The notes under the pieces were generated by a model that saw nothing but the letters and a program-made list of their open reading frames with translations, made no database searches and had not been told where the DNA came from. This document shows, piece after piece, positions 4,707 through 63,652 of a DNA stretch of 64,000 bases (position 1 is its first letter; each line of letters opens with the position of its first letter). The translations under genes and the position numbers were made by a program. Origin of the DNA: an uncultured Candidatus Saccharibacteria bacterium (GTDB taxonomy: Bacteria > Patescibacteriota > Minisyncoccia > Phycocordibacterales > UBA9973); NCBI GenBank assembly GCA_964423445.1, contig CAYREQ010000001.1:129732-193731 (forward strand). Direction: 5' to 3'.

Positions 4707-5417
4707 TTAGTTTAAAACAGGTATTACCAAAGCTACTGATTCGATGAGAGTCTTTGGTGAGCTTCCTGGCATACGCAAGATTTCTCTTGTTTTGAAAATG
4801 TGTCTAAAAACTTCCCCATCAACTATATTTTTCTTTATGTTTTTATGCAGACTATATTCGAGAGAATTTAAAAATTTGAGTGTCTTTGCTCTATTAGAAT
4901 CTAAAACAACTACCTCCTCATCTTCCGTATCTTTTTCTGAGAGCATTTCTTTTATAAAATCCAATCTATTTTTCAAAGGCATTTTTATAAACTTTTCTGC
5001 ATCTTTTACCTCTGGCAGACTATCAAACTTTGCGGATATAAAATAAAATCTAGACAATAATGTCTTTAATATATTACTAGTGTCTGGTGTGATGACAAAA
5101 AAGTATGTATTCTCTATCGGCTCTTCAAATAATTTAAGCAAACTATTTTGTGCTTCTAAGAGAAAGTTGTTTGCAAAGATAATAAATATTTTTTTAGTAG
5201 ATGAATACCCTTTTTGATTTCCATAAATTTTTAAATTACGAGCGTCTTCTATTTTAAATGAATCAGTATAAATTTGAACCAAGTCTGGATTGTTTTCTAT
5301 TTTGATTTTTAAACTTTTTATAAAATCAAAAATTACTGGCAATGCTTCATCTTTACCACTTTCAATAAGATACGCATGATGTAAATTGTCCTTATCTAAA
5401 TGCTCTTTTATGCTCAT
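4707..5417 (-). CDS. holB: DNA polymerase III delta-prime-like clamp-loader subunit (degenerate AAA+)
   Basis: It has HAYLIESG in the Walker A position with no GKT, an NSLLKLFEEP sensor region and an LLSRF SRC-like motif. These are typical of the non-catalytic delta' subunit. Confidence 0.5.
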   Translation of the reverse strand: MSIKEHLDKDNLHHAYLIESGKDEALPVIFDFIKSLKIKIENNPDLVQIYTDSFKIEDARNLKIYGNQKGYSSTKKIFIIFANNFLLEAQNSLLKLFEEPIENTYFFVITPDTSNILKTLLSRFYFISAKFDSLPEVKDAEKFIKMPLKNRLDFIKEMLSEKDTEDEEVVVLDSNRAKTLKFLNSLEYSLHKNIKKNIVDGEVFRHIFKTREILRMPGSSPKTLIESVALVIPVLN

Positions 5418-6431: not shown

Positions 6432-6467
6432 AAAAGAAATATAGCATAAATATGCTAGAATAAAAAC

Positions 6468-8405
6468 ATGAAAATCGTGAACGTAATACCACTAAAAAAG
6501 ACCCCTCTAAAAACGGATCTTACGTATTTCACCACTAAAAATATTGAAAATGGGAGCACGGTAATGGTAAATCTTCGCAATAAAAAGACACTAGGATTAG
6601 TGGTCTCAGTAGAAGATGTCTCTGATACAAAAATCAATATCAAAGGTATGGATTTCAATCTAAAAAAAATCCTAGAGGTAAAAGACAAATCAGTATTCTT
6701 GAAAGAATACATAGAATCTGCAGTATTGACTAGTAAATATTTTGCTTCAAATAAAAGTACTGCAATTACATCTCTAATACCAGCTCTATTCATAGAACAA
6801 TATGATAAAATTTCTAAAATTGAAAAGAATAACTTTAAGACTATCTTAAATAAACTAAGTATAAAGACTGAAAAATTACTTTTACAAGAATCACTGGAGA
6901 ATCGTATTTCTATATATAAAACTCTAATCCGTGAAAATTTTGCTTCAAAAAAATCTATTTTTATAGTATTGCCGACCGAAAATGATATTGAAGATTTTAA
7001 AAATGATTTATGTAAAGGTATAGAACAATTCACTTACACTATACATGGAGGAGTATCTACAAAGAAAATTATTGAAAAATTTAATGATATTTTGAATACA
7101 GACCACCCGATATTGATACTGGGCACTGCACCCTTTTTATCTATACCACGCAGAGATATAGGCCTAATAATATTAGAGCACGAGAGCTCCCCTAGCTATA
7201 AAATGGTAGCTAGACCACATTTTGACTTACGTGTTTTTGTAGAAATTTTTGCATCAAAAATCAATGCCAGATTTATCTTGAGTGATAATCTTCTTCGTTT
7301 TGACACAATTGCTAGAAAAGAAATTGATAGACTGATACCTATGTATCCGCTTTCTTTTAGGTTGAACTTCAATAAAGATATCATTATAGAAAATCCAAGA
7401 CCAAAGAAAAATCAAAACGAAGAACAAAGTACAAAAAAAACTTTCAAAATTCTTTCTGAAAATTCAACTAGAGAGATCGTAAGTGCTTTAAATAATGATG
7501 AGAATGTATTTGTGTTTACCTTAAGAAAAGGACTGGCTACACAGACTATATGTGTAGATTGCGGAGAGATGGTGAGTTGTAATAAATGCTCTGCTCCCTT
7601 GGTCTTGTACAATTACAAGAAAGGTAAAGAAAGAGTATTTGTGTGTAATAAATGTGGCGACGAAAAAGAAGGCTTATCTGTCTGCACACATTGCAAGAGC
7701 TGGAATTTAAAACCCTTAGGCATAGGTACAGATACAGTATGTGATGAACTGAAAAAGATATTTCCAAAAAATAAAATTATAAAATTTGATAAAGATTCTA
7801 TAAAAAATAAAAAGGAGGCGAGCAAGGTAATCGAAGAATTTGAAAACTCTACTGGTTCTATATTGGTAGGTACTGAAATGGCTCTATTTTATCTAAAAAA
7901 CAAAGTATCTTTATCAGTCGTATCCTCGCTCGACTCTTTTTGGAGCATACCTAATTTCAGAATGAGTGAAAAAATTTGCCAATTGATAATATCTATAATA
8001 TCTAAAACAAAAGATAAGTTTATAATCCAAACTAAAAATGAAAAAGATGAAGCTTTGACTGCAATTTATTCTAGAAATTTAATCCATTTCATTAGAAAAG
8101 AGCTAGAAGATAGAAAAGAACTCTCTTATCCTCCTTATAAACGTTTCATAAAAATTAAATATATTGGAAATAAAGTTGATACATTAAAGATAAAAGAAGA
8201 AGTGGCAGAAATTCTCAAGGATTATAACCCACTTATTTTTAGTGGATTTTCATCACAAATAAAGAGTAAGTATGTGACAAATATACTTGTAAAAGTCGAT
8301 ATAAAAGACTGGTCGATAGAAAATGTAGACCAAAATTTACTTTCAAAACTTCTATCTCTTCCCCTTTCTTTTGATATATATGTAGACCCAGAAGATCTAT
8401 TATAA
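6468..8405 (+). CDS. primosomal protein N' (PriA)-like, helicase motifs degenerate
   Basis: It has a PriA-type N-terminal 3' DNA-binding-like region and the Cys4-Cys4 zinc-binding insertion (CVDCGEMVSCNKCSAPLV...VCNKCGDEKEGLSVCTHC). Positional homologues of PriA helicase motifs are present (IFIVLPTEND; ILILGTAPFL; IILEHESSPSYK), but there is no GxGKT Walker A and DEEH is replaced by LEHE. Confidence 0.6.
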   Translation: MKIVNVIPLKKTPLKTDLTYFTTKNIENGSTVMVNLRNKKTLGLVVSVEDVSDTKINIKGMDFNLKKILEVKDKSVFLKEYIESAVLTSKYFASNKSTAITSLIPALFIEQYDKISKIEKNNFKTILNKLSIKTEKLLLQESLENRISIYKTLIRENFASKKSIFIVLPTENDIEDFKNDLCKGIEQFTYTIHGGVSTKKIIEKFNDILNTDHPILILGTAPFLSIPRRDIGLIILEHESSPSYKMVARPHFDLRVFVEIFASKINARFILSDNLLRFDTIARKEIDRLIPMYPLSFRLNFNKDIIIENPRPKKNQNEEQSTKKTFKILSENSTREIVSALNNDENVFVFTLRKGLATQTICVDCGEMVSCNKCSAPLVLYNYKKGKERVFVCNKCGDEKEGLSVCTHCKSWNLKPLGIGTDTVCDELKKIFPKNKIIKFDKDSIKNKKEASKVIEEFENSTGSILVGTEMALFYLKNKVSLSVVSSLDSFWSIPNFRMSEKICQLIISIISKTKDKFIIQTKNEKDEALTAIYSRNLIHFIRKELEDRKELSYPPYKRFIKIKYIGNKVDTLKIKEEVAEILKDYNPLIFSGFSSQIKSKYVTNILVKVDIKDWSIENVDQNLLSKLLSLPLSFDIYVDPEDLL

Positions 8406-18234: not shown

Positions 18235-19599
18235 TTAGAGTAGGTCTATATTAGCTTGAATTTTCGCTTTTAAGTTCATGACACTCTTACCATATGAGCA
18301 TGTGGTACCACCTGAGCCATAATACTTACAAGCTGCTTTTATTTGCCCACTTGCACTGGTACCGATTGCTCCCAGGTCTGTCAGATACATACTAGAAGCC
18401 ATAAATGCGTCTTCTGGTGCCCAAGGATTTGGATAATGACCAAGTGCAGTTTGCAAACGACTGATAAACATTTTCCAAGTAGAAGGAATAAACTGCGCAG
18501 GGCCCATAGCTCCACCATAGCCAGCTACTCCAGCGATAGGACAAGACACAGCTGTCTGATATGGATCTACGCCAAGCTTTCCAGTAATTTCAAGAAATGG
18601 AGCGACGTCTCGTGTAGGCTTCATGACATTTGCAAATGGTGTGCCTGTATTTTTCCCTTTTCCAGCGCCTGTCTCTGTGTTTGTAAGATAACATTGACCG
18701 ACATTTGAACCCAAGTTACTTTCTTGGGTAAGAATAGCAAGTAGAAATGCTGGCTCTATACCTGTCTTACCCTCAGCTTCTCTTGCATATGCTAGTGCTG
18801 TACCGAAATCAATCTTTGTAGAAGTGTTTGCTAAAGGAAATAATGCTGCACGAATTTTATCAGCACGAGCTTTCTTTTCCGCTGCGAGCTTTTGATATTC
18901 AGATTCTTTTTGTTTAGAAATTGCCAAGAGTTGTTTTTTCTCTGCTTCAGACTGAGCTACCTTTTGCTGAGCACTTTCCAGCTCTGCTTTGGCATCTGTC
19001 TCTGCGTCTTGCTTTTGCTCCAACTCAATTTTTGCTAGTTCAGTTTGTTTTTTTGTGACTCTGACAATACCTAAAGAGTCTTCTATTCCTTCCTTGATTG
19101 CAGTATATGCTTCGATATCTCCGTAAAAATCAGAAATACTCTCATCTGATAAAATCAGATGCATGATATTTCCATTATCAAACTCATTTTCATTTCGGAG
19201 TAGTTTTGCCAATGAAGCGTGCTCACGGTTAATTTTTGTAGACAGAGAGTTTATGGTGTTTGTCTTCTCGGTAATATGTACTTTTATTTGAGCTATTACT
19301 AGAGCCCGAGCTTTAATCTTTGCTTTTAGTGCATTTATTTGGCTGGTTAGGTAATCCACATCACCTTTGATATTTCCTGTAGTTTTTTGCTGTTGTTTTT
19401 GTTTCTGTAAGAGCTCTGCTAGCTGTGCTTCTATCTGAGCAAGTTCGTTTTTACAATAATCTTTATTTGCCTGGCTAGAGTCAGAATCTAGTTTTAAACA
19501 ATCAAAAGCTGCATTCGTAGGTTTTGTAAAAAATCCTAACATCATAAATGCAGACACGATAAATATAAACAAAAAAGCTATGACTGTTTTCTTGGTCAT
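18235..19599 (-). CDS. secreted/membrane-anchored coiled-coil protein with C-terminal lytic transglycosylase (SLT/lysozyme-like) domain
   Basis: N-terminal transmembrane or signal segment, about 230 aa of heptad-rich coiled coil, then LAILTQESNLG (catalytic Glu motif) and GAMGPAQFIPSTW, typical of SLT domains. Confidence 0.6.
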   Translation of the reverse strand: MTKKTVIAFLFIFIVSAFMMLGFFTKPTNAAFDCLKLDSDSSQANKDYCKNELAQIEAQLAELLQKQKQQQKTTGNIKGDVDYLTSQINALKAKIKARALVIAQIKVHITEKTNTINSLSTKINREHASLAKLLRNENEFDNGNIMHLILSDESISDFYGDIEAYTAIKEGIEDSLGIVRVTKKQTELAKIELEQKQDAETDAKAELESAQQKVAQSEAEKKQLLAISKQKESEYQKLAAEKKARADKIRAALFPLANTSTKIDFGTALAYAREAEGKTGIEPAFLLAILTQESNLGSNVGQCYLTNTETGAGKGKNTGTPFANVMKPTRDVAPFLEITGKLGVDPYQTAVSCPIAGVAGYGGAMGPAQFIPSTWKMFISRLQTALGHYPNPWAPEDAFMASSMYLTDLGAIGTSASGQIKAACKYYGSGGTTCSYGKSVMNLKAKIQANIDLL

Positions 19600-33984: not shown

Positions 33985-34167
33985 TTAGTATGTTGAAGGA
34001 TCGTTCCACCTTGATGGATCGACCCGTAATGAAGCCACTGATTTGCTGGCTTCACCATCTTCTTTTTTTTCTTCGACTTCCTCTTCGGCAGTCGAAGGTT
34101 TAGGTTCGTGCTCGGGCACTTGTGCGACCGAGAGAAGAATTGAGTTTGATGTTTCTTTGATAGCCAT
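33985..34167 (-). CDS. hypothetical small acidic protein
   Basis: 60 aa with a strong AAGGAG Shine-Dalgarno 8 nt upstream. GC-rich codon usage like the gene upstream of it. Probably co-transcribed with 34183..34665. Confidence 0.4.
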   Translation of the reverse strand: MAIKETSNSILLSVAQVPEHEPKPSTAEEEVEEKKEDGEASKSVASLRVDPSRWNDPSTY

Positions 34168-34182
34168 TTCCGTATCTCCTTA

Positions 34183-34665
34183 TTAGTGAAAATTACTGTC
34201 GTGGTCAAAAATTACGGTGCCTTCTTTTTTACCGAAAGAAGCAAACCTTTTTTCTTTGTACTCCCGAACCTTCATTCGAGAACTTTTGCTTTTCTTTCGG
34301 TTTTTGATGATGTAAATCACCGAAACTAAAAGTAGCCCAAAGAAAATTGCGATTGAGGCTAGGACTCCAGAAGTCCCACTCAAAAGATAGCTTTTGTAAC
34401 CTCCTTCTTTTACTTGATAACCGGTCGCTAAGGCTGGCGACGGTGTCCTGATCGGCGTCGTTGCTGGCGCCGAAGTGTTTGGTATTTTTACATCCGCCGA
34501 CCTAGTCATCGTCGACGAAGGGGGTCTGTTGTCCAGAGCTAACCCTGGATACAGTTTTGTTTTTGGCGGCAAGACTGTATTTGAATTAGCGGACTTTTTA
34601 GTCTGTGAAAAAACTGGCGAGATTGCCAAAACTACAAAAACTAAAATAAGAAATATTTTCTTCAT
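34183..34665 (-). CDS. hypothetical type-I membrane protein (signal peptide, Pro/Ser/Thr-rich stalk, C-terminal TM anchor)
   Basis: MKKIFLILVFVVLAISPVFSQ signal peptide, low-complexity PST linker, transmembrane helix ...ASIAIFFGLLLVSVIYII and a basic tail. GGAG Shine-Dalgarno 8 nt upstream. Confidence 0.6.
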   Translation of the reverse strand: MKKIFLILVFVVLAISPVFSQTKKSANSNTVLPPKTKLYPGLALDNRPPSSTMTRSADVKIPNTSAPATTPIRTPSPALATGYQVKEGGYKSYLLSGTSGVLASIAIFFGLLLVSVIYIIKNRKKSKSSRMKVREYKEKRFASFGKKEGTVIFDHDSNFH

Positions 34666-34738
34666 TTCAATACTCCTAAACCTATGAAAAAATCAACGAA
34701 CTAGGCAGACATCACAAAAATGTGACACCATAGTTCTT

Positions 34739-34798
34739 TCTACCTAAAAGTATAGCATATTCTTACCTATTTGTCAAGGTAAATAAGCTTATTTTATA
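34739..34798 (-). promoter_or_regulatory. consensus sigma70 promoter, copy A of a 60-nt repeat
   Basis: On the minus strand it reads TTGACA, a 17-nt spacer, then TATACT. The -35 is at 34772-34777 and the -10 at 34749-34754 (plus-strand coordinates). It is flanked by an AT-rich UP-like segment and is 56/60 identical to 36153-36212. Confidence 0.65.
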
Positions 34799-34825
34799 AG
34801 GTTTTTTTGTATAAAAATAGAAAAT

Positions 34826-34852
34826 GGCCGGAACTCATAGAGCCCGGCCAGA
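34826..34852 (-). terminator. Rho-independent terminator of the 388-aa gene
   Basis: GGCCGG...CCGGCC stem, then a T-rich tract on the minus strand. A second GCTCGAG...CTCGAGC hairpin lies at 34880-34900. Confidence 0.55.
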
Positions 34853-34909
34853 TTGATAATTTATTGAGTTTATCTCTCATGCTCGAGTAACGCTCGAGCG
34901 TCGTTTGTT

Positions 34910-36076
34910 TTAGAATCCTTCAGATAATCTTCGGGAATCTTTTTGATACCTAGCAGCCCGATGTCCGCCAGATTGTGCGTAGTGGTCGTAATCTTCGTGA
35001 TCAGAAACCGTTTCGGTTGGTTTCGTGACCACAGAACTTACTACCTCTACTGTCGGCGGCGCGATGCTGACTGGAATCGTATCTTTAGAAGAAAATTTAT
35101 CCTCCGTTAGATTGAGGATGTGTTTTCCTCGGCATTCCTCGTCGGAAACGACCGGTTTGTCTTCGATGAAAACAAACCCTTTGTATGTGTCCCCCGAGTG
35201 AACCGGATTCATGCAGGCCTGAAGGGTCTGCAAGACTTCTTCTGTCCCATCCGGAAATCGATATCGGGCTTGATAAGCTCGAATACCGGGCTCCGGAATA
35301 CGACGAGGCTTCATGGTGGTACCCAAGTAGCCGACCAACCCTTCACCAGAGATAGTCCCGACTTGGATCGGTCCGATACGCCGGATGTCAAAGGTGAACC
35401 CTTCGAGATTAGGATTTCTTTCTCTGTAGAGAGAGCTCGCCCTCTGGTCGAAAAATTTTTCCAGTCTTCTGGTCTCGACCGGTTCGATGCCGCCAGCAAC
35501 ATAAGGCTTGCCTGATGTTATCGGATCAAGTCTGAGCTCGCGATCTTCCCAGCTCTCTTCTTCGTCTTCGTCACTAAAGTCGGGATGCCAATTTCTCGGA
35601 TGCGAGAAAGAAAGCAAAGCTCTCCAGATAAGAAAAACGAGGAATAGTGCGATGACGATGTACGGCGCCAACCAGCCGTAGTCCTTCCACAACATTGCTG
35701 TCGTGTAATTTTCCGGACCGGCTGGAAGTGTCGTAACCAATGGTGGTTTACCCTTCAACGCCGGCTCCGTGGATTCGGTGGAAGCTGTGGGTTCTGTCGT
35801 GGGTGTATTGTATGCCTTCGCATACTCACGCCCCCAGATACCGCGAGTGTCCCCGACTTCGAGTCGGTCGATCGTACCGTCCGGAAGACGGTAACTATCG
35901 CCGGCTTTCATTCGCTTGAAATCGACGTTCGGGTTTAACTTCACGACCTTCGCCATGAAGTTTCCAAAGTCTCTGTGCGACATGATTCCGAAATACAAAT
36001 TTGCCGATACCGGTGTGGTAGCTGTTAACGTTAACAGCATCACCAGTACAAAAATACTAACGAATGTTTTTTTCAT
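34910..36076 (-). CDS. hypothetical single-pass membrane protein (signal peptide, Pro/Thr-rich extracellular stalk, TM, ~230-aa cytoplasmic domain)
   Basis: 388 aa. MKKTFVSIFVLVMLLTLTATTPVSA signal peptide, TPTTEPTASTESTEP linker and a central transmembrane helix WLAPYIVIALFLVFLIW. The coding sequence is visibly GC-rich relative to the rest of the window. Confidence 0.65.
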   Translation of the reverse strand: MKKTFVSIFVLVMLLTLTATTPVSANLYFGIMSHRDFGNFMAKVVKLNPNVDFKRMKAGDSYRLPDGTIDRLEVGDTRGIWGREYAKAYNTPTTEPTASTESTEPALKGKPPLVTTLPAGPENYTTAMLWKDYGWLAPYIVIALFLVFLIWRALLSFSHPRNWHPDFSDEDEEESWEDRELRLDPITSGKPYVAGGIEPVETRRLEKFFDQRASSLYRERNPNLEGFTFDIRRIGPIQVGTISGEGLVGYLGTTMKPRRIPEPGIRAYQARYRFPDGTEEVLQTLQACMNPVHSGDTYKGFVFIEDKPVVSDEECRGKHILNLTEDKFSSKDTIPVSIAPPTVEVVSSVVTKPTETVSDHEDYDHYAQSGGHRAARYQKDSRRLSEGF

Positions 36077-42236: not shown

Positions 42237-44537
42237 TTAATCTACACTAGCTTCATATTTTCTCATGGCCTCTTCGGCATGCATATGAAAGAGTAAAGTA
42301 ATCAGGTAAGCACGAGCATCATTGTAATCTTGCCCCATTTTTTCCTCACCATTTATCCAGTGTTTTAAAATTTCTTCATCGAGTTTTATCTCTTTAAATT
42401 TTCCGTCTTTTTCTGGTACACGTATTTTACTGACTTTAAATTTATCAATAAGGATTGTGGCAATTTCAGTATTGGTCAAAAAGTTTACCATAGCAGCAGA
42501 GCCTCCTCCCTTGGAACAAAAAGCTTCATACATCTCAATTCCCGCTCCGCCTACATTTCCTTTCTCTGCCCATTTTTTTCTTATGCCATCTATCACCTTT
42601 GCCCACATTTCTCTATGTGAAGAAAACATGCTCCTGACATTTTTTATCTCCTCTATACCTTTTCTAGCATCTGTAAATAATTCTACCCAATGAGAAGGCA
42701 GTGGCAATTTACTATTTTTTTTATTTTCATGAAATTCTTCTACAGTTTTCTTTTCCACCAAGTCTATCAATTCTTCCAATTGTTTTATTTTATTTAAATC
42801 CAATTCTCCCCTCGTTGCTTTCATTAGATTTTCGTGTACACCCTGACTATCGTGTGTCTTGTAGACCTGAGAAACTGTAGTGTCCTTTAATATGTTATTT
42901 TTTTCAAGCCATTTTATAAAATCAAATTTTTCTGTCTCTTTTTTTTCTGTAGCACCTATCATAGCTGCACGAGTGATGACTGCGCGCAATGCTACAGCGT
43001 ACGTATTCCCACCAAACACTTCAGGGGTTAGGTCTGGTCCTGTAAATTCTAATCTAGCACCCGTGGTAAGCTTTGGAGATTCTCCTTCTTTTGATTTTTC
43101 TAAAAATTTTAAAAATTTTGCAAAGGACACACTGTCTCTAGATCGTACTTCTGAATGCATAGGTGCATATGTACGAGTAATACCAGAAGGTGTTTCTATT
43201 TCTATTTTTCCTGTTGTTCTGTCAAAACTGTTTGCTAAACCTTTCAATAATAATTCTTCTTTTAAGAGCTTGAAATCAGTCTCTGGTGGAATCAACCCTG
43301 GAGCACGACTAGTAGGAATTATATTTCTAAGCACAGAACGTCCAGATAAAATATCTACTACCTCACCTTTACTATTTGGTAAGTGCGTCTTTGCTCCGTG
43401 AATCATGTTTCCTGAGTAATTCAATACATTTACAATCTCAGACCAATATATACCTCCATTTACTGCTCCTTTCATTGCAGATTGGGGTATCATTCCGTCT
43501 TTATGCTGAGGAACACCGACAGATATATGCAAAGCTCTAGCCATCCAAGCATCAAAAAGATATGTTCTAACAAAAATTTCTCCTGGTGAACGAGCTGGGT
43601 ATTTAGGGTCACTAGTGATTCCATGCGTATGAGCAATCTGATTCAAAACTTTTAAAACATCTTGATCTTTACTCAAAATAAAAGATAAGTTTTGCAACAT
43701 CTTTGCTGTATAAGCATTTGTAGCTGCATCGAGATAGCCCAAGCTCTGCTGAGCCTTTGGAGGTAATAATTCGAAGTGTTCAGCTTTTAATGCTGTATAT
43801 GGCTCTTCTTTTAAAGGAACTTTCTGTGCCATCGTATTTGTAAATTCCAATATATAGGCTTCATCTTTGGCTTCTTTAAAAATTTCTTTTTGAATTCTTA
43901 CTAATGAATTTTTGAAATCTTTAAAATTTTCTGCTGGGAGCTCTTCGCTGAGTTCGCGCATATTTAAAAATGCTTCTACGAGTCCTTCTTTGCATAAAGA
44001 AAAAGCTCTTCGTGCAGCTCTTTCTTTTCCTTCTTTTGTATCTATATCATATTCTTGTATACCAAATTCTATTTCTTGGCCCATGAGCATGCCGTGCTCG
44101 GCTGTGTCTTTTAGCCAGTCTTTTATAAAAGCTTGGTCGCGAGGAGAATTATCAAGCAATACGACTTGTATCTCATTTGTCATTGCAGAAGAATCATCTG
44201 GAGAAAGTGGCACCATAGGATACATAGGACTTCCATCAATCTTTACACCGATTGGATCTTTTGTAGTATCTTCTCTTCTTCTAAAAGCGCCTTCGGGAAC
44301 TATGAGAGTATACTCAACATCACCAATACCTAAAGATGGGTAAGGTTTGAATGTCATTGCCCAAGAATTACTGCCATAAGGAGAGACCGTAGCACTTGCC
44401 TCTACTTCACCATACTCTCTTAGCATGTGCTCTAATTCTTCTGGGTTTATGCGTTCACCCTCACCTTTTAAATCCAATTTTGGTTTATGAATTTCTTTTT
44501 CAGTATTTTGAAAGTTTTCCATATTTCCTGGATTCAT
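42237..44537 (-). CDS. large hypothetical protein (766 aa), unassigned
   Basis: A long uninterrupted ORF with host-like composition. No P-loop, HExxH or other catalytic motif recognisable by eye. Confidence 0.55.
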   Translation of the reverse strand: MNPGNMENFQNTEKEIHKPKLDLKGEGERINPEELEHMLREYGEVEASATVSPYGSNSWAMTFKPYPSLGIGDVEYTLIVPEGAFRRREDTTKDPIGVKIDGSPMYPMVPLSPDDSSAMTNEIQVVLLDNSPRDQAFIKDWLKDTAEHGMLMGQEIEFGIQEYDIDTKEGKERAARRAFSLCKEGLVEAFLNMRELSEELPAENFKDFKNSLVRIQKEIFKEAKDEAYILEFTNTMAQKVPLKEEPYTALKAEHFELLPPKAQQSLGYLDAATNAYTAKMLQNLSFILSKDQDVLKVLNQIAHTHGITSDPKYPARSPGEIFVRTYLFDAWMARALHISVGVPQHKDGMIPQSAMKGAVNGGIYWSEIVNVLNYSGNMIHGAKTHLPNSKGEVVDILSGRSVLRNIIPTSRAPGLIPPETDFKLLKEELLLKGLANSFDRTTGKIEIETPSGITRTYAPMHSEVRSRDSVSFAKFLKFLEKSKEGESPKLTTGARLEFTGPDLTPEVFGGNTYAVALRAVITRAAMIGATEKKETEKFDFIKWLEKNNILKDTTVSQVYKTHDSQGVHENLMKATRGELDLNKIKQLEELIDLVEKKTVEEFHENKKNSKLPLPSHWVELFTDARKGIEEIKNVRSMFSSHREMWAKVIDGIRKKWAEKGNVGGAGIEMYEAFCSKGGGSAAMVNFLTNTEIATILIDKFKVSKIRVPEKDGKFKEIKLDEEILKHWINGEEKMGQDYNDARAYLITLLFHMHAEEAMRKYEASVD

Positions 44538-60841: not shown

Positions 60842-63652
60842 CTAGACTACGATGTTAAGAATTTTCCTGGGGATAAAAATGTATCTCTTATTTTTGCCTT
60901 CTATCCACTTCTTTACCTCGGGTATTTCTTCTGCTATTTTTACAGCGTCGCTCTCTTTTATGTCTGCATTTGCTTTAAATTGTCCTCGCACCTTACCATT
61001 TACCTGTACTACTATATTTACTTCTTCTTGTTTTATTTTTGACTCGTTAAAAACTGGCCAAGGTTCATGGTGAATAGTTTTCTTGTGTCCAAGCATGTTC
61101 CATATTTCTTCTGTCATGTGTGGAGCAAAAGGAGAAAGTAATTTTAAGAATATTTCATATTCTTCTTTTGATATTTTTTCTAATTTTTCATTCTCATTTA
61201 TAAAAATCATAAGCGAAGAAATAGCCGTATTAAATTTCATTGCTTCAATATCTTCAGAAACTTTTTTTATTAATTTTTGAATTCCATTTTCATTATAATT
61301 TTTATTTTTTTCTACTTTAGATTGTAAATTCCACACTCTCTCTAAAAATCTTCTTGGGCCAATTATTGCATCATCACTCCAAGCTACTGCTTGGTCAAAT
61401 GGACCCATAAACATCTCATATACGCGCAATGTATCAGCACCATAGATTTTCACTATTTCGTTTGGATTTATTACATTACCTAGGGATTTAGACATCTTTA
61501 CTCCCCCTTCGCCAAGTATCATGCCGTGGCTTGTACGCTTCATATATGGCTCAGGTGTAGGCACGAGCTTTAAATCGTATAGGAATTTATGCCAAAAACG
61601 AGAGTATAAAAGGTGGAGCGTAGTGTGTTCATTGCCTCCATTATACCAATCTACTGGTGTCCAATATTTTAAGTTTTTCTTGTCTGCAAAAGCTTTTTTA
61701 TTTTTAGGATCTGTATATCGTAAATAATACCAAGAACTTCCAGCCCAATTTGGCATAGTGTCTGTCTCTCTTTTCGCAGGAGCTTTACACTTTGGACATT
61801 TTACATTTACCCATTTTGAAATATTTGCGAGCGGGGATTCACCACTATCTGTAGGTTGATAATTTTTTACTTTAGGTAATTCCACAGGTAAATCTTTTTC
61901 TGGTACAGGTACCATGCCACACTTGCCACAATGAATTACAGGAATAGGCTCACCCCAGTATCGTTGACGAGAAAAAACCCAGTCACGAAGCTTAAAGGTG
62001 GTCTTTCTTTTTGCAAAACCTTTTTTAACAAGCCAATCAGCTATATCATTTCTAACTTCACTCACCTCTCTGCCTTTAAACTCTGCAGGTTCATTTAGTA
62101 TTCCATTTTTTATAGGTTTACCATTCCCTCGTAAGTTCCTCCAATCATTGAGCATTGCATCTATCTTCATGGTTTTTTCTATTTCTTCAGGTGATAACCA
62201 TCTTATTTCATGATTTTCTTTTTCTTCTTCACTTAGTTCTTTATGTTCTCCATTTTCTAGTTCAAAATAAAAATTTGAAAAATGAACTGAGCGATTTTCT
62301 TTTTTAGGAACATGGTAAAAAATACTGTGAGAGCGAGAAAATTCTTTTTTAAATTTTAAATTAATATAACCAGTTTCTTCTTGAATTTCTCTAACTGCTG
62401 CTTCTTTTGGATCTTCTCCTTTTTCTACTCCCCCAGTTATAAATGTGACCCAATCAGCTTTTTTCCAAAATAAAACTAAATATTTATCTTCGCTCCAATG
62501 TTTGACTATGGCATGTATGGCATTTCTCTCTACTATTGGACCAGGTTGTAACTCACTATGGAATACTGGCTCTATTACTTCTTTTAATTTTATATTGAAT
62601 TTTTTAGCAAAAATAAAATCACGCTCATCGTGTGCAGAGCATTTTACAATTCCTGTTCCATAATCTTTTAATGCAAAACTTGCTACCCAGATAGGTAAAT
62701 CTCCATTACCAAGTGGATCTATCGCATATCTACCTGTAAAAATTCCATCTACATCTTTGTATTCTTCTCCTTGTTTTAATCTTTTTTGAATAATTTCACT
62801 AGCCTTCTTTAATACTGAATCTTTTTCTTTTACACCTTCGAGAAGTTTTGGTAAAAGTGGGTGATCTGGAGCAATAGCAAAAAAAGTGTCAGCATAACAT
62901 GCTTCAAAATGCGCAGAAAAAGTTTCTACAGTCATATCTAAATCCTTTACCTTAGCAGAAAATATTAATCCTTCGGATTTACCTATCCAATTTCTTTGTC
63001 CCAATTTTATCTGTGGTAAATAATTTACATCATCTAAATCTTTATGTAATCTCTCGGCATATTTTGTGATTGCTAGCATCCACTGCTCTTTGTCTCTCTT
63101 TTCTACTATCGTCCCGCATCTCTCACAACACCCATTTATCACCTCTTCATTGGCGAGACCTATCTTATCTTTTGGACACCAATTGATAGTCATCTTAGCT
63201 TTATAAGCTAAACCTTTTTTTAAGAATTGTAAGAAAATCCACTGTGTCCATTTATAATATTTTGGATCAGTAGTATTTATCTCTCTTGACCAATCAAAAG
63301 AAACACCAAGAGATTGTATTTGCTGTCTAAAGGTATCAGTATTTTTCTTTGTGACGACTCGTGGATCTTTTCCTGTTTTAATTGCAAAGTTTTCTGTAGG
63401 TAGACCAAAGGCATCCCAGCCTATAGGATAAAGGACATTGTAGCCTTCCATTCTTCTTTTTCGGGAAATTACATCCATGCCTATGTATGGTCTAGGATGT
63501 CCTACGTGTAGTCCTTCACCTGATGGGTAAGGGAATTCTATGAGAGTAAAATATTTTGGTTTTTTAGAAATTTTCTCTGCGTGGTAAGTCCCCTTTTTCT
63601 CCCAAGTGTTTTGCCATTTCTTTTCAAGTTTTTTATGGTCGTATTTCTTCAT
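60842..63652 (-). CDS. leuS: leucine--tRNA ligase with an inserted Nudix hydrolase domain
   Basis: EFPYPSGEGLHVGHP (HIGH), CCERCG Zn motif, CP1 remnant, KLRDWVFSRQRYWGEPIP, KMSKSLGN. Residues ~365-520 carry a perfect Nudix box, GGVEKGEDPKEAAVREIQEETGY. Confidence 0.9.
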   Translation of the reverse strand: MKKYDHKKLEKKWQNTWEKKGTYHAEKISKKPKYFTLIEFPYPSGEGLHVGHPRPYIGMDVISRKRRMEGYNVLYPIGWDAFGLPTENFAIKTGKDPRVVTKKNTDTFRQQIQSLGVSFDWSREINTTDPKYYKWTQWIFLQFLKKGLAYKAKMTINWCPKDKIGLANEEVINGCCERCGTIVEKRDKEQWMLAITKYAERLHKDLDDVNYLPQIKLGQRNWIGKSEGLIFSAKVKDLDMTVETFSAHFEACYADTFFAIAPDHPLLPKLLEGVKEKDSVLKKASEIIQKRLKQGEEYKDVDGIFTGRYAIDPLGNGDLPIWVASFALKDYGTGIVKCSAHDERDFIFAKKFNIKLKEVIEPVFHSELQPGPIVERNAIHAIVKHWSEDKYLVLFWKKADWVTFITGGVEKGEDPKEAAVREIQEETGYINLKFKKEFSRSHSIFYHVPKKENRSVHFSNFYFELENGEHKELSEEEKENHEIRWLSPEEIEKTMKIDAMLNDWRNLRGNGKPIKNGILNEPAEFKGREVSEVRNDIADWLVKKGFAKRKTTFKLRDWVFSRQRYWGEPIPVIHCGKCGMVPVPEKDLPVELPKVKNYQPTDSGESPLANISKWVNVKCPKCKAPAKRETDTMPNWAGSSWYYLRYTDPKNKKAFADKKNLKYWTPVDWYNGGNEHTTLHLLYSRFWHKFLYDLKLVPTPEPYMKRTSHGMILGEGGVKMSKSLGNVINPNEIVKIYGADTLRVYEMFMGPFDQAVAWSDDAIIGPRRFLERVWNLQSKVEKNKNYNENGIQKLIKKVSEDIEAMKFNTAISSLMIFINENEKLEKISKEEYEIFLKLLSPFAPHMTEEIWNMLGHKKTIHHEPWPVFNESKIKQEEVNIVVQVNGKVRGQFKANADIKESDAVKIAEEIPEVKKWIEGKNKRYIFIPRKILNIVV

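What the first reader, a model, noticed from the sequence alone, without database searches (positions are those of the whole stretch)
6468..8405. PriA-like protein retaining the DNA-binding and zinc-ribbon regions but lacking the ATPase motifs
The protein has the PriA N-terminal 3' DNA-binding-like region and the characteristic double CxxC zinc-binding insert. Segments positionally homologous to helicase motifs are present (IFIVLPTEND ~ LVMVPEIGLTPQ; ILILGTAPFL ~ AIVIGTRSALF; IILEHESSPSYK ~ VIDEEHDSSYK). The Walker A (GxGKT) position instead reads ESLENRISIYK, and DEEH is LEHE. Such a protein cannot hydrolyse ATP, so it may be a structure-specific fork-binding or loader scaffold rather than a helicase. 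This bears on how these reduced genomes restart replication.
Basis: partly seen in the sequence, partly recalled or inferred. Interest (0 to 1): 0.55.

Follow-up and report, generated by a model that had tools for sequence, protein, structure and literature searches.

The report
ATPase-dead PriA of Parcubacteria
This gene encodes the replication-restart protein PriA of a tiny-genome Parcubacteria (Patescibacteria) bacterium, which keeps the PriA fold and DNA-binding parts but has lost every ATP-using motif, making this large lineage a second, more extreme natural case of a "pseudohelicase" PriA after Deinococcus.

Summary
ORF 6468..8405 (+), 645 aa, is a true PriA homologue. The evidence is a 3'BD Pfam hit, NCBIfam priA models, a family-profile match to K. 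pneumoniae PriA at E 8e-68, and an AF2 model (pLDDT 93) whose best PDB matches are all PriA. It has no P-loop. R146 sits at E. coli K230 and is preceded by acidic residues. DEEH has become EHES, with the catalytic Glu replaced by His. Motif III is lost and motif VI is deleted. The winged-helix domain is also absent. Retained are the 3'BD, all eight zinc cysteines, the aromatic-rich loop, the DNA-contacting motifs Ia/Ib/IV/V, and the residues that in E. coli line the lagging-strand ssDNA pore and stabilise the CRR-UP state. This is not an error or a pseudogene. None of 400 full-length relatives (32-89% identity, Nomurabacteria/Paceibacteria/Parcubacteria) has a Walker A. Synteny is fixed in 80 species and dN/dS is 0.065. 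The most likely role is an ATP-independent fork-recognition and replisome-reloading scaffold, like E. coli PriA K230R and D. radiodurans PriA. I could not exclude a second, canonical priA elsewhere in the genome. I rate it a new variant of a known kind, of moderate interest.

The parts
6468..8405 (+). Complete priA-like gene (645 aa plus TAA stop). It is the PriA orthologue of a Nomurabacteria/Paceibacteria-type Parcubacterium.
   Evidence: ORF list. PriA family hits. AF2 pLDDT 93.1 / pTM 0.92. Foldseek top nine hits are all PriA, best 8fak_H at E 4e-42 and TM 0.81.
6468..6797 (+). N-terminal 3' DNA-binding domain (3'BD), aa 1-110.
   Evidence: Pfam PF17764 aa 13-105, 30.6 bits > 22.7. Y20 aligns with E. 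coli Y18 and is conserved in 146/147 representatives. K66 aligns with K61, with K/R in 143/147. pLDDT is about 90-96.
6798..6869 (+). Short linker (aa 111-134) in place of the winged-helix domain, which is absent.
   Evidence: MAFFT alignment has a gap opposite E. coli ~113-215. pLDDT dips to 66 at aa 121-130. The second-best structural match is the engineered E. coli PriA WH-deletion protein 6dcr.
6885..6920 (+). Pseudo-Walker A (aa 140-151, QESLENRISIYK). There are no glycines and no GK[ST]. R146 is at the K230 position, preceded by acidic residues.
   Evidence: Register fixed by MAFFT and by the HMMER profile alignment. R is present in 146/147 representatives. The signature Q-x5-R-x3-[YF] occurs in 380/400 relatives, mostly with [ED][ED] before R. 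The AF2 helix already starts at aa 143.
7164..7190 (+). Pseudo-Walker B (aa 233-241, LIILEHESS). E237~D320, H238~E321 (the catalytic Glu, lost), E239~E322, S240~H323.
   Evidence: Family states: position 237 is E 117 / D 30; position 238 is R 43 / K 37 / H 24 / N 15; position 239 is E in 143/147.
7191..7238 (+). Aromatic/basic loop (aa 242-257, PSYKMVARPHFDLRVF). It is the counterpart of the PriA aromatic-rich loop that wedges into the fork junction.
   Evidence: Aligned to E. coli SSYKQQEGWRYHARDLA. P250, D253 and R255 are at least 90% conserved. The loop's role is taken from PMC5778457 and PMC10175261.
7275..7292 (+). Motif III remnant (aa 270-275, ILSDNL versus E. coli ILGSAT).
   Evidence: D273 is at least 90% conserved.
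7509..7538 (+). Motif IV retained (aa 348-357, FVFTLRKGLA). R353 and K354 align with E. coli R427 and R428, which contact lagging-strand ssDNA in the pore.
   Evidence: R353 is R in 141/147, K354 is K/R in 131/147, G355 is G in 145/147. The role of R427/R428 is from PMC13594977.
7545..7706 (+). Cysteine-rich region (aa 360-413). It has four CxxC pairs (two predicted Zn sites), a beta-hairpin 4 aa longer than in E. coli with a Lys-rich tip, and a conserved W412 at the position of the E. coli PriB-docking residue T482.
   Evidence: All eight Cys are at least 142/147 conserved. D364~D438 is D in 138/147, and W412 is W in 143/147. The PriB-dock residues are from PMC10175261.
7857..7883 (+). Motif V, partly retained (aa 464-472, SILVGTEMA). 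The G-T-E/Q-M core is kept, and the following KGHHFP segment is lost.
   Evidence: G468 is G in 135/147 and T469 is T in 145/147. Alignment.
7980..8015 (+). Motif VI remnant (aa 505-516, QLIISIISKTKD). It has a 5-aa deletion and both E. coli motif VI arginines (QVAGRAGRAG) are gone.
   Evidence: The gap is present in 147/147 representatives.
8124..8402 (+). C-terminal domain (aa 553-645), beginning with the conserved YPP motif.
   Evidence: Y554-P555-P556 is invariant or nearly so and aligns to E. coli LPPW. pLDDT is about 96. Some relatives carry precomputed Pfam PF18074.

Best explanation
The gene encodes the vertically inherited PriA orthologue of a Parcubacteria (Nomurabacteria/Paceibacteria) bacterium, and it has evolved into an obligate pseudohelicase.

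Shown:
- It keeps the whole PriA architecture except the winged-helix domain: 3'BD, two RecA-like lobes, a two-zinc cysteine-rich region inserted in lobe 2, and the C-terminal domain.
- It keeps the residues of the DNA-contacting motifs (Ia, Ib, IV, V and the aromatic/basic loop).
- It keeps the residues that in E. coli line the lagging-strand ssDNA pore and stabilise the rotated 'CRR-UP' state.
- It has lost all residues that bind or hydrolyse ATP: the P-loop glycines and lysine, the catalytic Glu of DExH, motif III, and the motif VI arginines.

Inferred mechanism:
- The aromatic/basic loop sits at the junction.
- Lobe 2, the CRR and the CTD enclose single-stranded lagging-strand template.
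- The exposed CRR surface, with its invariant Trp412, or another surface then recruits the replicative helicase DnaB or its loader.
- No ATP-driven unwinding of a duplex lagging arm takes place. This matches E. coli PriA K230R in the PriA-PriB pathway and D. radiodurans PriA.
For: PriA identity:
- Sequence and profile matches.
- AF2 model with pLDDT 93.1 and pTM 0.92.
- The Foldseek top nine hits are all PriA chains. The next hit, Mfd, has an E-value about 17 orders of magnitude worse.

Loss of ATPase motifs, in the query and family-wide:
- Shown: - 0 of 400 full-length relatives carry a Walker A at the correct site.
- R146 at the K230 position is conserved in 146/147 representatives.
- The catalytic Glu position holds R/K/H/N.
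- Motif VI is deleted in 147/147.

Selective retention of DNA-binding and pore residues (roles from PMC13594977 and PMC10175261):
- R353/K354 correspond to R427/R428.
- Y/H381 corresponds to H455.
- D/E422 corresponds to E492.
- D/E443 corresponds to D513.
- All eight Cys are retained.

The gene is functional and orthologous:
- dN/dS is 0.065 overall and 0.047 in lobe 1 against an 88%-identical orthologue.
- The order rseP<frr<holB<mreB<priA>rsmI<atpC<atpD holds, complete or nearly so, in all 80 GTDB species loci wherever the contig reaches (per-gene recovery: mreB 79/80, holB 75/80, rsmI 69/80, atpC 54/80).
- An independent assembly encodes the identical protein.

Precedents that ATPase-dead PriA works:
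- E. coli priA300 (K230R) lacks ATPase yet behaves almost like wild type and supports restart in vitro (PMC5778457).
- K230A PriA loads DnaB in vitro (PMC10175261).
- D. radiodurans PriA has no ATPase or helicase activity but binds forks and DnaB (PMC4504706).

Conformation:
- The model is closer to fork-bound CRR-UP PriA (8fak_H, TMq 0.81) than to any apo, ADP, SSB or dsDNA-bound CRR-DOWN structure (TMq 0.60-0.70).
Against: - No biochemical data exist for this family. Loss of ATPase, fork binding and DnaB recruitment are all inferred.
- The rest of the genome could not be examined, so a second, canonical PriA is not excluded.
- No partner is identified. DnaB, a loader and SSB are not among the window proteins that were scanned against family libraries. 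About 30 of the ~49 ORFs of at least 150 aa left after excluding obvious overlapping shadow ORFs (55 listed) were scanned.
- The acidic residue at the Walker B Asp position and the invariant Arg at the Lys position are conserved. This could mean that the former active site still binds some ligand.
- The resemblance to the CRR-UP state rests on one AF2 model and on global TM-scores, without inspection of coordinates.
Confidence: 0.7

Rival explanations
1. It is a paralogous pseudo-helicase. The genome also encodes a canonical, ATP-hydrolysing PriA elsewhere, and this copy has an accessory or different role.
For: Only 64 kb of the genome is visible. The TIGR00595 score is below the equivalog cut-off.
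Against: - The window holds no second PriA homologue.
- None of the 80 loci from 80 different species assemblies holds a second copy within about 6 kb on either side, and no assembly contributed two loci.
- Sources label this family as the primosomal protein N' of those genomes.
- Among the top 150 representatives (383-923 bits, 32-66% identity) and 400 full-length relatives, none is canonical.
- The synteny is strictly conserved and orthologue-like.
- From general knowledge: Patescibacteria genomes of about 1 Mb rarely keep such paralogues.
Confidence: 0.1
2. It is still an NTPase or helicase that uses a non-canonical active site, for example R146 plus E237/E239, or the proposed second nucleotide site of PriA.
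For: R146, E237 and E239 are very strongly conserved. [quoted passage not shown]
Against: - All P-loop glycines are replaced. In most members acidic residues precede R146, which would repel phosphates.
- AF2 predicts that the helix starts three residues early, leaving only a 2-residue turn where the P-loop should be.
- The catalytic Glu is replaced by R/K/H/N, motif III is lost and both motif VI arginines are deleted.
- The single K230R change already kills E. coli PriA ATPase.
- D. radiodurans PriA, with far milder changes, is inactive.
Confidence: 0.05
3. It has been repurposed away from replication restart. For example, it could be a structural DNA-branch-binding protein in recombination or repair, or in chromosome or cell-cycle control next to mreB, that no longer loads the replisome.
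For: Function is not tested. The WH domain that contacts parental duplex in E. coli is missing. No primosome partner is seen nearby.
Against: - The modules specific to fork recognition and to lagging-strand enclosure are exactly the ones kept.
- Neighbouring genes are unrelated housekeeping genes on the other strand, so the synteny gives no functional link.
- The PriA N-terminal region is the most length-variable part of the family (PMC4504706 Fig. 1 legend), so the missing WH domain is not evidence of a new function.
Confidence: 0.12
4. It is a pseudogene, or the motif region was corrupted by a sequencing or assembly error.
For: None beyond the unusual motifs.
Against: - The 645-codon frame is uninterrupted.
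- An independent assembly encodes the identical protein.
- The same substitutions are conserved in hundreds of relatives.
- dN/dS is 0.065.
- The predicted fold has very high confidence.
Confidence: 0.01

Closest known systems
Deinococcus radiodurans PriA pseudohelicase (Lopper, Boone & Morrow 2015, PMC4504706)
   Same: It is a natural PriA orthologue with degenerate Walker A and B motifs. The Walker lysine is replaced by arginine, which matches R146 here. By analogy it would bind ssDNA and forks and contact DnaB without ATPase or helicase activity.
   Different: The lineage is different (Deinococcus-Thermus versus Parcubacteria), so the loss is presumably independent. As described in the paper, the Deinococcus-Thermus proteins have poor matches to motifs I and II with a K-to-R change in the GKT. 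Here the glycine-rich loop is gone entirely, the catalytic Glu is replaced, motif III is lost, motif VI is deleted and the WH domain is absent. I did not align a D. radiodurans sequence directly. No biochemistry exists for the present family.
E. coli PriA K230R / K230A (priA300), an engineered ATPase-dead PriA
   Same: Arg sits at the Walker lysine position. The protein still assembles primosomes and supports the PriA-PriB restart pathway and DnaB loading in vitro. This is the working model for an ATP-independent loader.
   Different: It is a single engineered substitution in an otherwise canonical helicase that works with PriB, DnaT and DnaC. [quoted passage not shown] The helicase-dead E. 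coli protein fails in the PriA-PriC pathway.
Canonical PriA (E. coli / K. pneumoniae; PDB 4NL4, 6DGD, 8FAK; TIGR00595, PRK05580)
   Same: 3'BD, two RecA-like lobes, an eight-Cys CRR inserted in lobe 2, the aromatic-rich loop, motif IV Arg-Arg/Lys, the motif V GT(E/Q)M core, the YPP/LPPW motif and the CTD. Foldseek gives E 4e-42 and TM 0.81.
   Different: Motifs I, II (catalytic Glu), III and VI are missing, and so is the WH domain. Sequence identity is 15-17%. The score is below the TIGR00595 trusted cut-off.
E. coli PriA winged-helix deletion protein (PDB 6DCR)
   Same: The domain composition is the same as in the natural protein here (3'BD directly linked to the helicase core). It is the second-best structural match.
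   Different: It is an engineered construct that retains all ATPase motifs.
Actinobacterial 'probable replication restart protein PriA' (PRK14873-type)
   Same: From my own recollection, not tested here: UniProt annotates these proteins as lacking detectable helicase domains and probably lacking helicase activity. The query hits PRK14873 models weakly (E 2e-21 to 2e-6).
   Different: The query matches PRK05580-type models far better (213 bits versus 76 bits or less).

Membership tests
PriA / primosomal protein N' (TIGR00595, PRK05580) | N-terminal 3' DNA-binding domain (PF17764) | tested here: met
   30.6 bits against a 22.7 cut-off, aa 13-105. The Y18 and K61 equivalents are conserved.
PriA / primosomal protein N' (TIGR00595, PRK05580) | Overall PriA fold: two RecA-like lobes plus CTD in the PriA arrangement | tested here: met
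   AF2 pLDDT 93.1. Foldseek top nine hits are PriA, best at E 4e-42 and TM 0.81. Family profile against 4NL4 gives E 8e-68.
PriA / primosomal protein N' (TIGR00595, PRK05580) | Cysteine-rich region with eight Cys (two Zn sites) inserted in lobe 2 | tested here: met
   C362/365/371/374/393/396/406/409 align one-to-one with E. coli C436...C479 and are at least 142/147 conserved. Zinc binding itself was not tested.
PriA / primosomal protein N' (TIGR00595, PRK05580) | SF2 ATPase motifs I (GxGKT), II (DExH) and VI (QxxGRxGR) | tested here: not met
   QESLENR replaces AGVTGSGK, EHES replaces DEEH, and motif VI has a 5-aa deletion. 0 of 400 relatives have a Walker A at the site.
PriA / primosomal protein N' (TIGR00595, PRK05580) | Score above the curated equivalog cut-off | tested here: not met
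   TIGR00595 scores 196.7 against a 230.35 cut-off. NF004066 scores 213 against 813. Homology is secure but the curated equivalog thresholds are missed, which probably explains the many 'hypothetical protein' names.
PriA / primosomal protein N' (TIGR00595, PRK05580) | Winged-helix domain between the 3'BD and the helicase core (present in E. coli and K. pneumoniae; not universal) | tested here: not met
   The alignment has a gap opposite E. coli ~113-215. Only a 24-aa linker is present, with low pLDDT at aa 121-130.
PriA / primosomal protein N' (TIGR00595, PRK05580) | Fork/D-loop recognition and reloading of DnaB (replication restart) | not testable with these tools
   This requires biochemistry or genetics.
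PriA pseudohelicase (D. radiodurans type) | PriA orthologue with the Walker A lysine replaced (K to R) and a degenerate Walker B | tested here: met
   R146 aligns with K230 in 146/147 representatives, and H238 aligns with E321. The description of the Deinococcus-Thermus motifs comes from PMC4504706.
PriA pseudohelicase (D. radiodurans type) | No ATPase or helicase activity, with retained ssDNA, fork and DnaB binding | not testable with these tools
   Only inferred from motif loss and from the retained DNA-binding residues.
PriA pseudohelicase (D. radiodurans type) | It is the only PriA of the genome (an orthologue, not an extra paralogue) | tested here: inconclusive
   No second copy is found in the 64-kb window or in 80 loci of about 14 kb. 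Synteny is orthologue-like.

The most novel reading that the evidence does not exclude
Across the Parcubacteria radiation, the only PriA is a 'self-liganded', permanently loader-state protein. The acidic-Arg pseudo-P-loop ([ED][ED]-R146) and the [ED]-[RKH]-E pseudo-Walker B would form an internal charge network that occupies the former nucleotide site. That network would hold the lobes and the CRR in the CRR-UP, ssDNA-encircling conformation that E. coli PriA reaches only after fork binding or unwinding. The invariant Trp412 patch on the CRR, at the E. coli PriB-docking position, would directly recruit DnaB or its loader. Replication restart in this major bacterial lineage would then run on a minimal, ATP-independent, PriB/DnaT-free primosome.
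Probability: 0.25. Interest if true: 0.65.

Novelty: new variant of a known kind. Interest (0 to 1): 0.42.

Why it matters
[quoted passage not shown] Here a second and far larger lineage, the Parcubacteria/Paceibacteria, has independently discarded the ATPase. At least the 150 best 50%-identity cluster representatives lack it, and 1,462 representatives score below E 1e-30. The loss is more complete than in Deinococcus, yet the rest of the protein stays under strong purifying selection.

That is a natural separation-of-function experiment. It indicates which parts of PriA form the indispensable core: the 3'BD, the junction loop, the ssDNA-pore residues, the CRR and the CTD. It also indicates which parts are accessory: ATP-driven unwinding and the WH domain.

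The family offers a small, WH-less, catalytically silent PriA for structural and reconstitution work. That work could address an open question: how PriA hands a fork to DnaB in the many bacteria that lack PriB, DnaT and PriC.

There is also a practical point. Curated PriA models miss their cut-offs on this family, so many MAG annotations call it 'hypothetical protein'. Metabolic or replication inventories of Patescibacteria may therefore wrongly score priA as absent.

Tried and rejected
- **Hidden P-loop or DExH found by profile methods:** rejected. The TIGR00595 alignment and the family-profile-to-PDB alignment both start right after the P-loop.
- **'GEFARGKS' in P0161 as a surviving Walker A:** rejected. 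It lies in the helix/strand after the P-loop position, opposite E. coli ENVLAQGKQ. 'AWNPGGKT' in P0374 is at residue 591, in the CTD.
- **Walking outwards from P0206, the only lineage that keeps DEEH, to find canonical relatives:** its 120 best relatives (37-42% identity) are all Parcubacteria-type and all lack a P-loop.
- **Genome-collection scan with the 147-sequence alignment:** failed because no stretch was conserved enough. It was repeated with a 32-sequence alignment.
- **Pfam scan of the whole alignment A1:** I used the precomputed Pfam columns instead, which show only PF17764, PF18074 and PF18319, never DEAD/ResIII/Helicase_C.
- **AFDB50 fold search:** the library was unavailable.
- **Retrieving the full source contig (195,791 bp) to look for a second priA, DnaB, DciA, DnaC or SSB:** the look-up returned only a 4-kb Logan contig.
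- **Literature searches for PriA in Patescibacteria, CPR or Parcubacteria:** none found a report of this loss. A search for mycobacterial PriA motif loss gave nothing usable.
- **Shadow ORF 6455..7033 (-) of 192 aa opposite the gene:** low-complexity and has no support. It is treated as non-coding.
Full report
**1. What is there**

The window carries an uninterrupted 645-codon ORF at 6468..8405 on the + strand. It ends in TAA, 4 nt from the convergent rsmI gene, and starts 36 nt from the divergent mreB gene. The window has about 35% G+C.

The neighbouring genes are housekeeping genes: ddl, an Xaa-Pro peptidase, rseP, frr, a short holB, mreB | priA-like | rsmI, atpC, atpD, atpG, atpA.

Close relatives are named Candidatus Nomurabacteria, Paceibacterota, Minisyncoccia, Parcubacteria or Patescibacteria by their sources. 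The nearest species-level genome in GTDB has an orthologue with 88% identity (L003).

**2. It is a PriA homologue**

- Pfam recognises only the PriA 3' DNA-binding domain (aa 13-105, 30.6 bits, cut-off 22.7). No helicase domain model passes.
- NCBIfam PriA models hit strongly: NF004066 at E 6e-63, TIGR00595 at E 6e-58, and a 612-position short PriA model over aa 16-614. All are below the curated equivalog cut-offs.
- phmmer against PDB sequences finds only PriA with significant E-values (E. coli and K. pneumoniae, E ~1e-20).
- A profile of 147 family representatives matches K. pneumoniae PriA at E 8e-68.
- An AlphaFold2 model built on that alignment is very confident (mean pLDDT 93.1, pTM 0.92, no segment below 50).
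- Its nine best Foldseek matches in the PDB are all PriA chains, with 8fak_H best at E 4e-42 and TM 0.81/0.81. The next family, Mfd, appears at E ~1e-9.

**3. The ATPase motifs are gone**

I verified E. coli numbering on the K-12 gene: K230 and D320-E321-E322-H323.

| E. coli motif | State in this protein |
|---|---|
| I (Walker A), A223-GVTGSGKT | L139-QESLENRI. All three glycines are replaced. R146 takes the place of K230, usually preceded by two acidic residues. |
| II (DEEH) | E237-H238-E239-S240. The Mg-binding Asp is conservatively kept as Glu. The catalytic Glu is His here and R/K/H/N across the family. |
| III (GSAT) | SDNL |
| VI (QVAGRAGRAG) | Cut by a 5-residue deletion that removes the second arginine. 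The first is Lys here. |

- The register at motif I is fixed independently by the HMMER profile alignment, which starts at I147 = T231.
- In the AF2 model, strand 136-140 is followed by a two-residue turn and the helix already starts at aa 143. There is no glycine-rich anion hole.
Otherwise the description is accurate.

**4. What else is missing and what is kept**

- About 100 residues corresponding to E. coli 113-215 are absent. They include the winged-helix domain and the segment before strand 1 of lobe 1.
- The second-best structural match is the engineered E. coli WH-deletion protein 6DCR.
- Kept, and conserved in at least 90% of 147 representatives that share only 32-66% identity with the query:
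  - Y20 (E. coli Y18) and K/R66 (K61) in the 3'BD.
  - The 'LPT' of motif Ia and T220 of the 'GT' motif.
  - P250, D253 and R255 of the aromatic/basic loop.
  - R353 and G355 of motif IV.
  - All eight CRR cysteines and D364.
  - G468 and T469 of motif V.
  - Q521 and T522.
  - The Y554-P555-P556 motif and W615 in the CTD.
- The SF2 motifs that touch nucleic acid survive, while those that touch ATP or couple hydrolysis do not.

**5. Residues tied to the restart-competent conformation are retained**

- In E. coli, fork binding rotates the CRR by about 85 degrees and lobe 2 by about 15 degrees. This makes a pore around lagging-strand ssDNA and exposes the PriB docking surface (PMC10175261).
- This CRR-UP state is stabilised by E492, H455 and D513. 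R427 and R428 contact the ssDNA in the pore. Variants that destabilise CRR-UP impair restart in vivo (PMC13594977).
- The equivalents here are all conserved:

| E. coli residue | Residue here | State in 147 representatives |
|---|---|---|
| E492 | D422 | E 100 / D 32 |
| H455 | Y381 | H 84 / Y 55 |
| D513 | D443 | D 87 / E 35 |
| R427 | R353 | R 141 |
| R428 | K354 | K 71 / R 60 |

- At the position of the PriB-docking residue T482 the family has a nearly invariant Trp (W412, 143/147).
- The CRR hairpin is 4 residues longer than in E. coli and has a Lys-rich tip.
- The AF2 model is globally closer to the fork-bound CRR-UP structure 8FAK (TMq 0.81) than to any CRR-DOWN structure (4NL4, 4NL8, 6DGD, 6DCR; TMq 0.60-0.70).
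- From my own knowledge, 8FAK (2023) post-dates the AF2 training set, so this is unlikely to be memorisation. It remains one model compared by global scores, and I treat it as suggestive only.

**6. It is a conserved, selected, orthologous gene**

- The 120 nearest relatives (55-89% identity) share the same replaced motifs. Their consensus reads 'FQAPLEDRISFYKTL', 'IILEHES', 'LSDTL' and 'SIISKT'.
- An exhaustive HMMER search of 1.84 billion cluster representatives gives 1,462 proteins below E 1e-30. The best 150 (32-66% identity, mostly 620-660 aa) all lack the motifs.
- With a further 120 relatives of the outlier P0206, 400 full-length members were checked:
  - None has a Walker A at the site.
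  - 380 carry the signature Q-x5-R-x3-[YF].
  - Only the small P0206 lineage keeps DEEH at the aligned position (residue 233). Two further members (P0290 at 205, P0314 at 212) contain a DEEH string whose register I did not check. None of these has a P-loop.
- In 80 GTDB species genomes the gene sits in the same context, rseP<frr<holB<mreB<priA>rsmI<atpC<atpD.
- dN/dS against the 88%-identical orthologue is 0.065 overall. By region it is 0.03 in the 3'BD, 0.05 in each helicase lobe and 0.07 in the CTD.
- An independent read-set assembly (Logan, SRR12487045) encodes the identical protein.
- Pseudogene and sequencing-error explanations are therefore excluded.

**7. How it most likely works**

- Established knowledge:
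  - E. coli PriA K230R lacks ATPase, helicase and translocase activity. Even so, cells behave nearly like wild type and the protein supports restart in vitro.
  - K230A PriA is routinely used to load DnaB in vitro.
  - D. radiodurans PriA, whose GKT lysine is Arg, has no ATPase or helicase activity but binds ssDNA and forks with near-normal affinity and binds DnaB (PMC4504706).
- Inference for this protein:
  - It is an ATP-independent fork-recognition platform.
  - The 3'BD would capture the leading-strand 3' end and the aromatic/basic loop would sit at the junction.
  - Lobe 2, the CRR and the CTD would enclose lagging-strand ssDNA.
  - A conserved surface, possibly the W412 patch, would recruit DnaB or its loader.
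  - It could not clear a duplex lagging arm itself. It would have to act on forks or D-loops that already expose ssDNA, or rely on another helicase.

**8. What could not be settled**

- Whether the genome has a second, canonical priA.
- Whether other Patescibacteria classes keep the ATPase.
- Who the partner proteins are. No DnaB, loader or SSB was found among the window proteins that I scanned. About 30 of the ~49 ORFs of at least 150 aa left after excluding obvious overlapping shadow ORFs (55 listed) were scanned.

**9. Comparison and novelty**

- In kind this is a PriA pseudohelicase, a category defined experimentally for D. radiodurans in 2015. The 2018 review still lists Deinococcus as the only exception to helicase conservation.
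- From memory, UniProt also flags actinobacterial PriA as lacking detectable helicase domains.
- Full-text searches found no report of this state in Patescibacteria, CPR or Parcubacteria.
- Compared with the Deinococcus-Thermus case as described in the paper, the present family differs in lineage and in scale, being a very large radiation. It also differs in degree: the whole P-loop, the catalytic Glu, motif III and motif VI are gone, and so is the WH domain.
- I therefore class it as a new variant of a known kind.
- Interest is moderate. A specialist would not be astonished, but the family gives a clean natural definition of PriA's ATP-independent core and a compact system for studying PriB/DnaT-free restart.

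Noticed in passing
window 60842..63652 (-): A 936-aa leucyl-tRNA synthetase carries a NUDIX hydrolase domain (Pfam PF00293, E 1.9e-16, aa 393-494). The domain is inserted just after the CP1 editing domain (aa 220-364) and before the anticodon-binding domain. This is an unusual domain fusion or insertion that deserves a look.
   Followed up: no
window 4707..5417 (-): The DNA polymerase III delta' (holB) homologue is only 236 aa. It matches only the central part of the holB models, for example profile positions 70-232 of 328, and scores far below their cut-offs. It is conserved two genes upstream of the priA-like gene in 75 of 80 related genomes. It may be another miniaturised or degenerate replication ATPase-fold protein.
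   Followed up: partly
window 42237..44537 (-) and 18235..19599 (-): Two long ORFs, 766 aa and 454 aa, have no Pfam match at E 1e-6 or better. Their function is unknown.
   Followed up: no
window 6432..6467: Only 36 bp separate the divergent start codons of mreB and the priA-like gene. At least one promoter must therefore overlap a coding region or the genes' 5' ends. This is typical of a very compact genome but was not examined.
   Followed up: no
related proteins P0206/P0283-P0286; also P0290 and P0314: The small P0206 lineage of the family still has an intact DEEH box (at residue 233, aligned to E. coli D320-H323) and the 'GS' of motif III, although it lacks the P-loop. P0290 (residue 205) and P0314 (residue 212) also contain a DEEH string, but I did not check that it lies at the Walker B position. 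These look like relics of stepwise decay from an active ancestor and would help date the loss.
   Followed up: partly
window 34001..36000: There is a local G+C peak of 0.46 against about 0.35 elsewhere. It covers ORFs 34183..34665 (-) and 34910..36076 (-). No rRNA was found there by Rfam. I did not investigate further. A highly expressed conserved gene is a plausible cause.
   Followed up: no
loci L003, L006, L007 and others: Many GTDB records that carry this Parcubacteria-type gene in the same Nomurabacteria-like synteny are titled 'uncultured Candidatus Saccharibacteria bacterium'. One (L039) is titled 'Burkholderiales bacterium'. These are probably mislabelled or contaminated MAG records.
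   Followed up: no
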